Positions 18,401 through 21,400 of a stretch of 64,000 nucleotides of DNA are shown here, piece after piece; the stretch's first letter is position 1, and each line of letters opens with the position of its first letter. Source of the DNA: Escherichia coli. Its GTDB lineage: Bacteria > Pseudomonadota > Gammaproteobacteria > Enterobacterales > Enterobacteriaceae. The position numbers are program-made. Location of the stretch: the NCBI RefSeq assembly GCF_022846255.1, contig NZ_AP025682.1; one strand, written 5' to 3'.

Positions 18401-21400
18401 AACAATAGCCACCACTCGCGGTTGATTGAGATCGATCCCCAGCCGTTGCGCCCATTCCGTAAGTGCGGGAGTATTCTCCTCAGCCTGAATCAGGTTCATC
18501 ACCAGTTCCTCCCGCAAACGGCTATCCTGCGCCAACAGGTGCATCAACCGAGACTGTTCCAGCATCATTTCAGCCGTCATGCAGACCAGTTCGCCATATT
18601 TACGCAGGTTCTCTGGTTCACCAGTCAGGCCAATTACGCCGACAATTTCACCTTCCAGCCGTAACGGCAGATTAATCCCCTGCCGCACACCGTGCAGATG
18701 ACGTGCCACCGCGTCATCAATATCGACGACTCGTCCCTGTGAAAGTACCAGCAATGCTCCTTCGTGCAATTCACCAATACGCTCACGATCGCCGCTGCCG
18801 ATAATTCGCCCGCGGGCATCCATTACGTTGATATTGGTATCGATGATGCGCATGGTACGTGCCACGATATCCTGCGCCATTTTGGTATCAAGATGCCAGC
18901 CAGCCATAAGTCCTCCATTATGCACGGCTTAGCATAAGGAAGTACGTAACGTACGGCATTGTGCAAATGCCCAAAGGATGATGAAGATGTATGGAGTTGT
19001 GGTGAAGTTCACAGATTGTAAGGAGAACCCCTTCCCGTTTTCAGGAAGGGGTTGAGGGAGATTACTGCATTAACAGGTAGATGGTGCTGTCGCCGCGCTG
19101 AATGTTCAGTGCCAGCACAGACGGTTTGCTGTCGAGAACTTTACGCAGTTCAGCGATGTTTTTCACTGCCTGCTGGTTCGCGCCAATAATCACATCACCT
19201 TTCTTCAGGCCGATCTGCGCAGCCGGAGTGCCCGTTTTCACGTTGTTCACCACCACGCCCTGATCTTTGCCTTTGTTACTCATCTCAGCGCCTTCAATGC
19301 CGTTGAAGATGGTGCTGGAATCAACCTGATTCTGGCTGCTCTGCTGAAGTTCCAGGTTCACGTTAACCTGCTTCCCGTCGCGCAGTAAGCCCAGGGTCAG
19401 TTTGCTACCTACCGGCATAGTGCCCACCTGAGCACGCAGTGCGGCAAAGCTGCTGATTGGCTTACCGTTCAGTGAGGTGATCACATCACCCGCTTTAATG
19501 CCCGCTTTCGCGGCGGAAGAATTCGGCAGAACCTGGCTTACGAAAGCACCGCGCTGGGCGTCAACTTTCATCGCTTTCGCCAGATCGGAGTTCAGCTCAG
19601 TGCCCATAATACCCAACTCACCGCGTTTCACCTGGCCGTATTCCACCATCTGCGAGGTCAGGTTTTTCACCATGTTGCTCGGGATAGCAAAACCGATACC
19701 GATGTTGCCGCCGTCCGGTGCGAGGATCGCGGTGTTGATACCGATCAGTTCACCGTTCAGGTTAACCAGCGCACCACCGGAGTTACCACGGTTGATCGCT
19801 GCATCGGTCTGGATGAAGTTTTCGTAGTTTTCGGCATTCAGGCCGCTACGCCCCAGCGCAGAGACAATCCCGGAAGTTACCGTCTCGCCCAGACCAAACG
19901 GGTTACCAATCGCTACGGTGTAATCACCCACGCGCAGTGCATCAGAATCCGCCATCTTAATTGCGGTCAGGTTTTTCGGGTTCTGGATCTGGATCAGCGC
20001 GATATCAGAGCGCGGATCTTTGCCAACCATCTTCGCGTCGAACTTACGGCCATCGCTCAGTTGGACTTTAATCACCGTCGCGTTATCAACAACGTGGTTG
20101 TTGGTGACGACATAGCCTTTATCGGCATCAATGATGACGCCGGAACCCAGCGCCATGAATTTCTGTTGCTGGCCGCCACCATTACCGCCCTGGCCCCCCT
20201 GGCAGAACGGAGAACTCTGGAACGGAGAACCTTCCTGGCAGAACGGAGAATCATCACCGAAGAACTGCTGGAAATTACGCGGCATACGCGGCGTATTAAC
20301 GGTTGTGCTACCTTCTACGTTAATGCTGACCACTGAAGGCATCACCTTTTCGAGCATCGGTGCAAGGCTTGGCATCTGCTGGGCTGTCGTTGCTGAAGAA
20401 GTCTCAGCCGCCGTTGCAGAGAGCGGAGATAACGCCAAACCTAAACTCAGAGCCAGTGCACTCAGTGCTAATGTGGTTTTTTTCATGTATTTCAGTCTCG
20501 ATTAACAGATAACGCAAAATTGCTGTGTTCTTCAGATTCGTTTTATAGCGCGAAGTTCCGAACTAAAGTTTCTGCAAAAGGTAAAAATTTATTGTTCGTC
20601 TTTACAAAAGCCTGGTTATTGTTCTACGGCCATCAGACGTCGGTATTCATCCCACGCATAGAGGTCGGTCATACCGCTGATATAATCCTGCAGCAGGCGG
20701 CAACGGTAATAATATTCCCATAGCGGAAACTCAGGAGAATCTGACGGTAATTTACTGACAGCCTCGACATAGGCCAGCCGATGGCGCGTCGAGAGTTTGT
20801 GGAATAAGCGCGTTTCAATAGGGAAACGTTTCACCCGTTCTTTTTCTACCAGTTCAGTAAAGTCTGATAACGACAGGTTTAATAAAGGACGATAAATCTC
20901 TAATAATCCGCTAATGACCCGATAGCCCTGCAATTCAAGCTGCTCGACATCTGGATGGCTAAACACATGTTTTACAGCGACATTTTTATATAGCTTAAGA
21001 AGATCGCTGCATTCGCTGGCATCTTCCAATAATGCATGATTAAACGTTCCGGCGAAAATCGCAGGCAGATTATCAATAAATCGTTGTGCCGCGTAGGGTA
21101 CCAGTTTATTTAGGGTGTTTACCCGTAAATACATAAAAAACTGATCTTCCGTACTGCGGCTTAAACTATTTGAGCGTGATTTTTCCCAGGCATTTTCAAC
21201 CACCAGCGAAAAGAGCGAACCTTTCTCATGCTGGCCCCACGCCTCGTGCAAATGATGATAAAGCTGCTCAACGGTAAATATTCTTTTCTCTACCGCATCT
21301 TCAAGATCTGCCACACAATAGGAGATGTCGTCGGCAGCTTCCATAATCCACGTTAATGGAAAACGACTGTAAAGCGCCAAATTAAGTTCTTTACGCAACC

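What the first reader, a model, noticed from the sequence alone, without database searches (positions are those of the whole stretch)
20525..20615. degP envelope-stress promoter intact
A sigma-E promoter match (GGAACTT, 16-bp spacer, TCTGA) with GTAAA motifs upstream (CpxR-type) shows the dual envelope-stress control of degP is preserved. It is a useful anchor for annotating the sigma-E regulon in this genome, which also includes rseP, bamA and skp in this window.
Basis: partly seen in the sequence, partly recalled or inferred. Interest (0 to 1): 0.2.

Follow-up and report, generated by a model that had tools for sequence, protein, structure and literature searches.

The report
Known degP envelope-stress promoter, intact
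This is the well-known stress-responsive promoter of the E. coli periplasmic protease gene degP, present and unbroken on the minus strand, so the finding is correct but ordinary.

Summary
GGAACTT lies at 20559..20553, followed by a 16-nt spacer and TCTGA at 20536..20532, 40 nt upstream of the degP start codon. GTAAA pentamers lie at 20605..20601 (-) and 20581..20585 (+). The window is E. coli chromosome (dgt-degP). The region is at least 99% identical in 5,424 of 5,426 complete E. coli genomes. It differs from K-12 only at two spacer bases, and the window carries the majority allele. The full motif occurs once in the window against 0.02 expected by chance. In 75 distinct sequences from about 25 enterobacterial genera, both GTAAA pentamers are invariant, and the -35 and -10 are nearly so.

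There are four refinements.
- The pentamers are inverted, not a tandem CpxR box. The curated site GTAAAGACGAACAAT scores weakly on a CpxR matrix.
- A second curated CpxR site lies inside dgt at 20755..20741. It is outside the finding and is not conserved.
- The transcript starts at A20526 and its leader is the known fourU HtrA RNA thermometer (Rfam RF02700).
- A conserved TATAAA in the spacer suggests an overlapping second promoter, as mapped in Salmonella.

Everything here is already known, so interest is low.

The parts
20553..20559 (-). sigma-E -35 element GGAACTT (7/7 to consensus)
   Evidence: Read directly and found by pattern search. Exact in 58 of 75 distinct enterobacterial sequences; the rest differ at one base (GGAACTA 13, TGAACTT 4).
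20537..20552 (-). 16-nt spacer CGCGCTATAAAACGAA. It holds the only differences from K-12 (G20551, C20550; K-12 has A, G). It also holds a conserved TATAAA at 20547..20542.
   Evidence: alignment to K-12; 4034 of 5424 genomes are at least 99% identical over the 101-nt query, consistent with the window allele, and 1390 fall in the 95-99% band; the listed 98.0% hits include DH5alpha, a K-12 strain. TATAAA is present in 59 of 75 sequences, although sigma-E spacers are normally poorly conserved (PMC3326320).
20532..20536 (-). sigma-E -10 element TCTGA
   Evidence: Exact in 65 of 75 sequences (TCTTA 6, TCTCA 3). It matches the TCAAA consensus at 3 of 5 positions and is identical to K-12.
20526..20526 (-). 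Inferred transcription start (+1, A) of the sigma-E promoter, giving a 40-nt 5' UTR
   Evidence: It lies 5 nt after the -10 and 26 nt after the -35, as preferred for sigma-E promoters. It coincides with the first position of the Rfam HtrA thermometer model. It also matches the 40-nt 5' UTR start mapped in Salmonella (PMC5602114). It was not mapped in this strain.
20591..20605 (-). Curated CpxR site 'degP1', GTAAAGACGAACAAT (GTAAA-N5-ACAAT), centred near -72
   Evidence: A 15/15 match to Table S1 of PMC9600279, sourced from De Wulf 2002. GTAAA is invariant in 75/75 sequences, and the CAAT core of the second pentamer is nearly invariant. The matrix score is only 6.06 bits.
20581..20585 (+). Second perfect GTAAA pentamer, inverted relative to the first (TTTAC in the degP sense, -59..-55). 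It is either an inverted CpxR half-site, part of a distal UP-like A/T tract, or both.
   Evidence: Read directly. Invariant in 75/75 sequences. Sigma-E promoters have an A/T-rich UP peak at -57/-58.
20481..20526 (-). HtrA 5'-UTR fourU RNA thermometer. UUUU at 20519..20516 pairs with the Shine-Dalgarno GAGA at 20499..20496.
   Evidence: Rfam RF02700 at 77 bits (gathering score 52), a full-length match. The core fourU-SD pairs are canonical in 57-72 of 75 sequences. Experimental basis in Salmonella: PMC5602114.
19062..20486 (-). degP (htrA) coding sequence, 474 aa
   Evidence: NCBIfam NF008189 'serine endoprotease DegP', 935 bits against a cutoff of 720.
20616..22133 (-). dgt (dGTPase) coding sequence. 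Its stop codon lies 10 nt upstream of the first GTAAA, with no terminator between them.
   Evidence: No terminator-like site lies between dgt and degP.
20741..20755 (-). Curated CpxR site 'degP2', GTAAATTACCGTCAG, inside the dgt coding region, 255 nt upstream of the degP ATG
   Evidence: It scores 12.09 bits, in the top 8 of the window. It is not conserved across genera: mean identity 0.56 against 0.74 for the surrounding 240 nt, and third-codon-position identity 0.51 against 0.51.

Best explanation
This is the canonical E. coli degP (htrA) regulatory region on the minus strand.

Core promoter: RNA polymerase carrying the envelope-stress sigma factor sigma-E recognises GGAACTT (20559..20553) and TCTGA (20536..20532), separated by the optimal 16 nt. 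It initiates at about A20526.

Cpx input: phosphorylated CpxR binds the conserved block upstream. That block is GTAAA-N5-ACAAT at 20605..20591, probably extending to the inverted GTAAA at 20585..20581. It is centred about 65-72 nt upstream of the start, a position typical of an activator that contacts the polymerase alpha subunit. Cpx signalling therefore boosts transcription.

Translation: the 40-nt leader folds into a marginally stable fourU hairpin that hides the ribosome-binding site at low temperature and opens on warming. This adds translational heat control.

What is shown here: the sequence elements, their uniqueness in the window, their identity to K-12, and their deep conservation. 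What is inferred from published work on K-12 and Salmonella: sigma-E dependence, CpxR binding and thermometer function. The activation geometry is my own inference.
For: Element positions and spacing: (1 match, 0.02 expected).

Gene identity.

Species-wide invariance: at least 99% identity in 5424 of 5426 complete E. coli genomes. 169 of 171 bases are identical to K-12, with both differences in the spacer. 4034 of 5424 genomes are at least 99% identical over the 101-nt query, consistent with the window allele being the majority form.

Phylogenetic footprint in 75 distinct sequences from about 25 genera: GTAAA and TTTAC 75/75, -35 58/75 exact, -10 65/75 exact. By contrast the linker after the dgt stop is 35% identical, and the stretch between the box and the -35 is 64%.

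Sigma-E promoter rules are met (PMC1312014).

Expression data: degP rises 56-fold on sigma-E overproduction, and is not induced by CpxR overproduction alone, which those authors attribute to limiting sigma-E (PMC2731931). degP rises 26.6-fold in cpxA24 and 32.4-fold with pNlpE, falling to 6.4-fold without cpxR (PMC9600279).

The 15-mer is listed as a known CpxR site.

Rfam RF02700 matches at 77 bits, starting exactly at the predicted +1. The Salmonella 40-nt UTR start is seen only under stress.
Against: The CpxR site is poor by the tandem-repeat model. It has 3 mismatches to GTAAA-N5-GTAAA and so is missed at up to 2 mismatches. It scores 6.06 bits on a leave-out matrix, where the training mean is 13.0, and 0.15% of all window positions score as well.

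The -10 matches the later TCAAA consensus at only 3 of 5 positions.

No measurement was made in this strain. The two spacer differences from K-12 are untested.

The conserved TATAAA in the spacer and the Salmonella 47-nt UTR start suggest that sigma-E may not be the only polymerase form used here.

The original footprinting and start-site papers (Pogliano 1997, Lipinska 1988, De Wulf 2002) could not be read.
Confidence: 0.93

Rival explanations
1. There are two interleaved promoters rather than one dually controlled promoter. The conserved TATAAA (20547..20542) inside the sigma-E spacer would be the -10 of a sigma-70-type promoter with a weak -35, starting near G20533 and giving a 47-nt UTR. 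CpxR would act mainly on that promoter, and sigma-E would use the GGAACTT/TCTGA promoter independently. This is compatible with the main explanation and refines it.
For: In Salmonella three htrA starts are mapped, giving 40-nt, 47-nt and 215/449-nt UTRs. Lewis et al. 2009 initially reported the 47-nt form as constitutive at low level (PMC5602114). The window aligns to Salmonella without indels from the -10 to the ATG, which places the 47-nt start at G20533. TATAAA is kept in 59 of 75 sequences, although sigma-E spacers normally show very little conservation (PMC3326320). degP is an outlier in the sigma-E in vivo promoter-strength model. The 25-bp conserved block would be centred near -60 relative to G20533.
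Against: The simple sigma-70 scan finds nothing in the intergenic region, because no acceptable -35 exists. The discriminator between TATAAA and G20533 would be long, at 8 nt. Sigma-E spacers are mildly A/T-enriched in the centre anyway. PMC2731931 attributes the lack of degP induction by CpxR alone to limiting sigma-E. No E. coli start-site data could be retrieved.
Confidence: 0.3
2. The invariant TTTAC and its flanking T/A tracts (about 20590..20576) are conserved as an UP element contacted by the polymerase alpha subunit, and are not a second, inverted CpxR half-site.
For: Sigma-E promoters carry A/T-rich UP sequences with information peaks at -57/-58 and -48/-49. [quoted passage not shown] The curated CpxR site stops at 20591 and does not include this pentamer.
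Against: The pentamer is an exact reverse complement of the CpxR half-site. It is spaced 20 bp centre to centre, two helical turns, from the first one. It is invariant in 75/75 sequences, including the G/C base, which an A/T-tract model does not require.
Confidence: 0.35
3. The two-base spacer difference from K-12 (K-12 CAGG, window CGCG, at 20551/20550) materially changes promoter strength, so the promoter is 'intact' in sequence but not equivalent to the K-12 reference.
For: [quoted passage not shown] The changed bases directly follow the -35, where the extended consensus is GGAACTTTT.
Against: Neither allele matches the TT of the extended consensus. 4034 of 5424 E. coli genomes are at least 99% identical over the 101-nt query, consistent with the window allele. 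CGCG or AGCG is also the common state in other genera, so the K-12 allele is the derived one. Spacer length and both hexamers are unchanged.
Confidence: 0.12
4. The motif is a chance match with no promoter function.
For: Relaxed sigma-E-like patterns are no more frequent in the window than in shuffles (9 against 6.2 +/- 2.4), so weak matches are unreliable in general.
Against: The exact motif is expected 0.02 times. It sits 40 nt upstream of degP, is identical to the experimentally studied K-12 promoter, and is conserved across about 25 genera while flanking intergenic DNA is not.
Confidence: 0.01

Closest known systems
E. coli K-12 degP (htrA) sigma-E promoter (degPp; Lipinska 1988, Erickson & Gross 1989; in the sigma-E regulon set of Rhodius et al. 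2006)
   Same: Same locus (dgt-degP). The -35, -10, spacer length, leader and upstream block are identical, with 169 of 171 bases the same.
   Different: Two adjacent spacer bases differ (window G20551/C20550 against K-12 A/G). The window form appears to be the majority E. coli allele and is the state seen in other genera.
CpxR regulon binding sites (consensus GTAAA-N5-GTAAA; De Wulf 2002), entries degP1 and degP2
   Same: Both curated 15-mers are present verbatim, at 20605..20591 and 20755..20741.
   Different: degP1 has a degenerate second half (ACAAT) and scores low. An additional perfect GTAAA in inverted orientation (20581..20585) is as conserved as the first but is not part of the curated site. 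degP2 scores well but lies in dgt and is not conserved outside Escherichia.
HtrA 5'-UTR fourU RNA thermometer (Rfam RF02700; Klinkert 2012; SHAPE analysis in Salmonella, PMC5602114)
   Same: A full-length covariance-model match at 77 bits. It has the fourU opposite the Shine-Dalgarno, a single bulged C and a 5-nt loop.
   Different: E. coli has an A.C mismatch in the lower stem (20520/20495) where Salmonella and most genera have A-U. The predicted minimum free energy at 37 C is -3.0 kcal/mol, against -6.8 kcal/mol for the Salmonella-like base. Function in E. coli was not checked here.
Salmonella Typhimurium htrA three-promoter arrangement (htrAp1, p2, p3; Lewis 2009, as summarised in PMC5602114)
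   Same: The 40-nt UTR start (p3, seen only under stress) maps to A20526. The sequence from the -10 to the ATG is colinear.
   Different: Whether the 47-nt and long-UTR starts exist in E. coli was not established. The E. coli equivalents are only inferred (G20533; inside dgt).

Membership tests
sigma-E (RpoE, ECF) dependent promoters of Enterobacteriaceae | -35 element GGAACTT | tested here: met
   7/7 at 20559..20553 (-). Consensus from PMC1312014.
sigma-E (RpoE, ECF) dependent promoters of Enterobacteriaceae | Spacer of 15-19 nt, with 16 strongly preferred | tested here: met
   16 nt, 20552..20537.
sigma-E (RpoE, ECF) dependent promoters of Enterobacteriaceae | -10 element TCAAA-like | tested here: inconclusive
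   TCTGA matches TCAAA at 3 of 5 positions (T, C and the final A). It is identical to the validated K-12 degP -10 and conserved in 65 of 75 sequences.
sigma-E (RpoE, ECF) dependent promoters of Enterobacteriaceae | 5/6-nt discriminator, 26/27 nt from -35 to +1, purine start | tested here: met
   A20526 gives a 5-nt discriminator and a 26-nt distance. [quoted passage not shown] It was not mapped here.
sigma-E (RpoE, ECF) dependent promoters of Enterobacteriaceae | Transcription depends on sigma-E | not testable with these tools
   Literature on K-12 only: 56-fold induction on sigma-E overproduction (PMC2731931).
CpxR-activated promoters | Tandem GTAAA-N5(-6)-GTAAA box | tested here: not met
   No hit at up to 2 mismatches in 20487..20615. 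The best tandem reading is GTAAA-N5-ACAAT at 6.06 bits, 1.6 sd below the mean of 38 known sites. The two perfect pentamers are inverted, 20 bp apart centre to centre.
CpxR-activated promoters | Sequence identical to an experimentally derived or curated CpxR site | tested here: met
   15/15 identity to 'degP1' and 15/15 to 'degP2' in Table S1 of PMC9600279.
CpxR-activated promoters | CpxR~P binding and Cpx-dependent induction | not testable with these tools
   Literature on K-12: 26.6-fold in cpxA24 and 32.4-fold with pNlpE. The original footprint paper could not be read.
HtrA 5'-UTR thermometer (Rfam RF02700, fourU class) | Covariance-model score above the family's gathering threshold | tested here: met
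   77.0 bits against 52, model positions 1-46 of 46.
HtrA 5'-UTR thermometer (Rfam RF02700, fourU class) | Four U's paired with the Shine-Dalgarno in a short, marginally stable hairpin | tested here: met
   UUUU 20519..20516 pairs with GAGA 20499..20496. The predicted minimum free energy is -3.0 kcal/mol at 37 C, and the hairpin is lost from the predicted structure at 42 C.
HtrA 5'-UTR thermometer (Rfam RF02700, fourU class) | Temperature-dependent translation | not testable with these tools
   Shown for Salmonella by reporter assays and SHAPE (PMC5602114). Not tested for the E. coli variant with the A.C mismatch.

The most novel reading that the evidence does not exclude
The dual control may not be one sigma-E promoter helped by a canonical tandem CpxR box. 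Instead it may be a compact composite with three parts.
- A 25-bp pseudo-palindromic CpxR element (GTAAA-N5-ACAAT-N5-TTTAC), invariant across Enterobacteriaceae and read differently from the textbook direct repeat.
- Two interleaved promoters, with a sigma-70-type -10 (TATAAA) embedded in the sigma-E spacer, so that CpxR and sigma-E act on different polymerase forms.
- One shared thermometer leader for both transcripts.
The E. coli thermometer would be tuned weaker than the Salmonella one by a fixed A.C mismatch.
Probability: 0.25. Interest if true: 0.3.

Novelty: already known. Interest (0 to 1): 0.07.

Why it matters
It matters little beyond annotation. The degP/htrA promoter was one of the two promoters from which sigma-E was first defined, and it is a standard reporter for both the sigma-E and Cpx envelope-stress pathways. 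Finding it intact in an E. coli chromosome is expected, since it is at least 99% identical in 5,424 of 5,426 complete genomes.

Three points came out of the check.
- A matrix scan alone would not have found the conserved CpxR site. The higher-scoring site inside dgt shows no conservation across genera. This is a caution for regulon annotation by motif score.
- The conserved unit upstream is larger than the curated 15-mer and includes an inverted GTAAA.
- The promoter cannot be read in isolation. Its 40-nt transcript leader is itself a temperature-sensing element, and the conserved TATAAA in the spacer hints at an overlapping second promoter, as in Salmonella.

Tried and rejected
1. Primary papers were not held in the library: the CpxR footprint (Pogliano 1997), start-site mapping (Lipinska 1988), the CpxR consensus (De Wulf 2002) and Price & Raivio 2009. 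Supplements of the two Rhodius papers were not held either. A true sigma-E position weight matrix therefore could not be built. I used the published consensus rules and an exact or relaxed pattern scan instead.

2. The tandem CpxR consensus search and the leave-out matrix did not single out the intergenic site. I rejected 'strong canonical CpxR box' as a description.

3. I considered whether the intra-dgt site degP2 is the conserved, functional one. This is rejected on conservation: its third-codon-position identity is no higher than background.

4. I first thought the conserved 5' leader might be a protein- or sRNA-binding site, because it folds worse than shuffled sequences (z = +1.99). This was resolved by the Rfam hit to the HtrA thermometer. 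A marginally stable hairpin is what a thermometer needs.

5. The sigma-70 and terminator scan of 18900..20900 found nothing in the intergenic region. There is therefore no evidence for a strong constitutive promoter or for a dgt terminator.

6. Searches for 'degP promoter' and 'htrAp1/2/3' added only the Salmonella SHAPE paper. Vogt 2019, which mutated the CpxR site in Citrobacter rodentium, is not held.
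Full report
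WHAT IS THERE

The window is E. coli chromosome, in the opposite orientation to the K-12 reference. degP (19062..20486) and dgt (20616..22133) both lie on the minus strand. NCBIfam equivalog models confirm both genes.

Read in the degP sense, the 129-nt intergenic region is:

CCAGGCTTTT-GTAAA-GACGA-ACAAT-AAATT-TTTAC-CTTTTGCAGAAACTTTAGTTC-GGAACTT-CGCGCTATAAAACGAA-TCTGA-AGAAC-A(+1)CAGCAATTTTGCGTTATCTGTTAATCGAGACTGAAATAC-ATG.

- GGAACTT at 20559..20553
- a 16-nt spacer at 20552..20537
- TCTGA at 20536..20532
- GTAAA at 20605..20601
- a second GTAAA on the plus strand at 20581..20585

IS IT MORE THAN CHANCE?

The exact pattern GGAACTT-N16-TCTGA occurs once in the window on both strands. It is expected 0.02 times by dinucleotide-preserving shuffles. 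A relaxed version is no commoner than chance (9 hits against 6.2 +/- 2.4), so the exactness is what carries the weight.

The 401-nt region is at least 99% identical in 5,424 of 5,426 complete E. coli genomes. Against K-12 MG1655, 169 of 171 aligned bases are identical. The two differences are adjacent spacer bases, K-12 CAGG against window CGCG at 20551/20550. 4,034 of 5,424 genomes are at least 99% identical over a 101-nt query, consistent with the window allele; the remaining 1,390 fall in the 95-99% band. The window state is also the common one in other genera, so K-12 carries the derived form.

PHYLOGENETIC FOOTPRINT

I fetched degP loci from one genome per species and aligned 75 distinct upstream sequences from about 25 enterobacterial genera.

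| Element | Conservation |
|---|---|
| GTAAA (20605..20601) | 75/75 identical |
| Inverted pentamer TTTAC (20585..20581) | 75/75 identical |
| Middle pentamer | CAAT core nearly invariant |
| GGAACTT | 58/75 exact; the rest differ at one base |
| TCTGA | 65/75 exact |
| Linker after the dgt stop | 35% identical |
| Stretch between the box and the -35 | 64% identical |
| Third codon positions at the end of dgt | 51% identical |

This is strong evidence of functional constraint that does not depend on the literature.

SIGMA-E PART

Published rules for sigma-E promoters are: GGAACTT; TCAAA; a strongly preferred 16-nt spacer; a 5/6-nt discriminator; 26/27 nt from -35 to +1; and a purine start (PMC1312014). 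These are met with +1 at A20526, except that TCTGA matches TCAAA at only 3 of 5 positions. From my own knowledge, TCTGA is the form seen in the two founding sigma-E promoters, rpoH P3 and htrA.

degP heads the list of sigma-E-induced genes at 56-fold (PMC2731931).

The start at A20526 has independent support. It is the first position of the Rfam HtrA-thermometer model. It also corresponds to the 40-nt 5' UTR start mapped in Salmonella, which was first reported only under stress (PMC5602114).

CPXR PART

The 15-mer GTAAAGACGAACAAT (20605..20591) is listed verbatim as the known CpxR site 'degP1', sourced from De Wulf 2002, in Table S1 of PMC9600279. In that paper degP is induced 26.6-fold in cpxA24 and 32.4-fold with pNlpE, falling to 6.4-fold without cpxR.

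The description needs refining in three ways.
- The tandem consensus with up to 2 mismatches does not hit the intergenic region.
- I built a matrix from 38 known sites, leaving out degP1, degP2 and skp. On it the site scores 6.06 bits, against a training mean of 13.0 with sd 4.3. 0.15% of all window positions score as well.
- The two perfect pentamers are inverted, forming GTAAA-N5-ACAAT-N5-TTTAC with 10-bp phasing. The inverted one is not part of the curated site, yet it is equally invariant.

That inverted pentamer could be a second CpxR half-site, or part of a distal UP-like A/T tract. Sigma-E promoters have an A/T peak at -57/-58. I cannot separate these two readings.

A second curated site, 'degP2' (GTAAATTACCGTCAG), lies at 20755..20741 inside dgt, outside the finding. 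It scores 12.09 bits, in the top 8 of the window. It shows no conservation beyond coding background across genera.

1. Thermometer. The 5' leader is the known fourU HtrA RNA thermometer (Rfam RF02700, 77 bits against a gathering score of 52, full length, 20526..20481). UUUU (20519..20516) pairs with the Shine-Dalgarno GAGA (20499..20496). This explains the conserved leader block and its weak folding (minimum free energy -3.0 kcal/mol at 37 C). Escherichia carries an A.C mismatch in the lower stem (20520/20495), where most genera have A-U. A Salmonella-like base would give -6.8 kcal/mol.

2. Spacer conservation. The sigma-E spacer contains TATAAA (20547..20542), kept in 59 of 75 sequences, although sigma-E spacers are normally poorly conserved (PMC3326320). 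In Salmonella a second start gives a 47-nt UTR and a third lies inside dgt. The 47-nt start maps to G20533 here. TATAAA is therefore a plausible -10 of an overlapping sigma-70-type promoter with a weak -35. The simple sigma-70 scan finds nothing there. This is inference only.

3. No terminator separates dgt from the promoter, so read-through or intra-dgt starts could contribute.

REGULON CONTEXT

rseP (3772..5124), bamA (1310..3742) and skp (703..1188) are in the window, all on the minus strand. They are listed as a sigma-E-induced unit in PMC2731931, with fold changes of 7.4, 3.7 and 1.7. Skp, DegP and YaeT/BamA are core-regulon members in PMC1312014.

VERDICT

All of it is already known, so the finding is ordinary.

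The modest added value is fourfold:
- the strand and exact coordinates
- the non-canonical arrangement of the CpxR pentamers, and the mismatch between matrix score and conservation
- the thermometer leader
- the hint of an overlapping promoter

Noticed in passing
window 20481..20526 (-): The degP 5' leader is the known fourU HtrA RNA thermometer (Rfam RF02700, 77 bits). E. coli has an A.C mismatch in the lower stem (20520/20495) where most genera have A-U. The predicted stability is -3.0 kcal/mol, against -6.8 kcal/mol for the Salmonella-like base.
   Followed up: yes
window 20542..20547 (-), within the sigma-E spacer: TATAAA is conserved in 59 of 75 enterobacterial sequences, although sigma-E spacers are usually not conserved. 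It could be the -10 of an overlapping promoter giving the 47-nt UTR start known in Salmonella, equivalent to G20533 here.
   Followed up: partly
window 20741..20755 (-), inside dgt: The curated CpxR site 'degP2' (GTAAATTACCGTCAG) scores high on a CpxR matrix (12.1 bits) but is not conserved across genera beyond coding background.
   Followed up: yes
window 4651..4678 (-), inside rseP: A sigma-E-like motif, GGAACTA-N16-TCGAA, lies about 450 nt into rseP and about 900 nt upstream of bamA. It may be the known internal sigma-E promoter that drives bamA-skp-lpxD. That identification rests on my memory of EcoCyc and was not verified.
   Followed up: partly
window 1309..1323 (-) and 5420..5434 (-): GTAAAACCTGGTAAG overlaps the end of bamA, upstream of skp, and is the curated 'skp' CpxR site (Table S1 of PMC9600279). 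A 14/15-identical copy, GTAAAACCTGGCAAG, lies inside cdsA.
   Followed up: no
window 22209..22223 (+): The best CpxR-matrix hit in the whole window (GTAAATCTATGAAAA, 16.3 bits) overlaps the mtnN start codon, in the divergent mtnN-dgt intergenic region. It is also the top local hit in the PSSM table of PMC9600279.
   Followed up: no
window 11559..11645 (-): t44 RNA (Rfam RF00127, 83.5 bits), the known element upstream of rpsB.
   Followed up: no
window 16317..17160 and 33940..33998, compared with L002 (E. coli SK1144): Strain-level indels. The window carries yaeI (16336..17148, +), which SK1144 lacks. The window lacks the 5.3-kb four-gene fimbrial operon that SK1144 has between mrcB and fhuA. 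The window is K-12-like at both places.
   Followed up: partly
L083 (E. coli 2017-19-1CC) 2248..2945; equivalent to window ~20616: One complete genome has an IS1 inserted between the dgt stop codon and the CpxR box. The core promoter is left intact but is uncoupled from dgt and from the intra-dgt CpxR site. This is a natural test of upstream contributions.
   Followed up: partly
alignment of L012, L020, L047, L070, L076 and others, equivalent to window ~20531: Many genera (Klebsiella, Kluyvera, Atlantibacter, Kosakonia and others) carry an insertion of about 7 nt (for example TAGTCAC) immediately after the -10. This shifts the start-site context relative to Escherichia, Citrobacter, Salmonella and Enterobacter.
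   Followed up: no
summary: Three of the 5,427 matches to the dgt-degP region lie on records labelled as plasmids, and 2 of 5,426 genomes have no match. Neither was examined.
   Followed up: no
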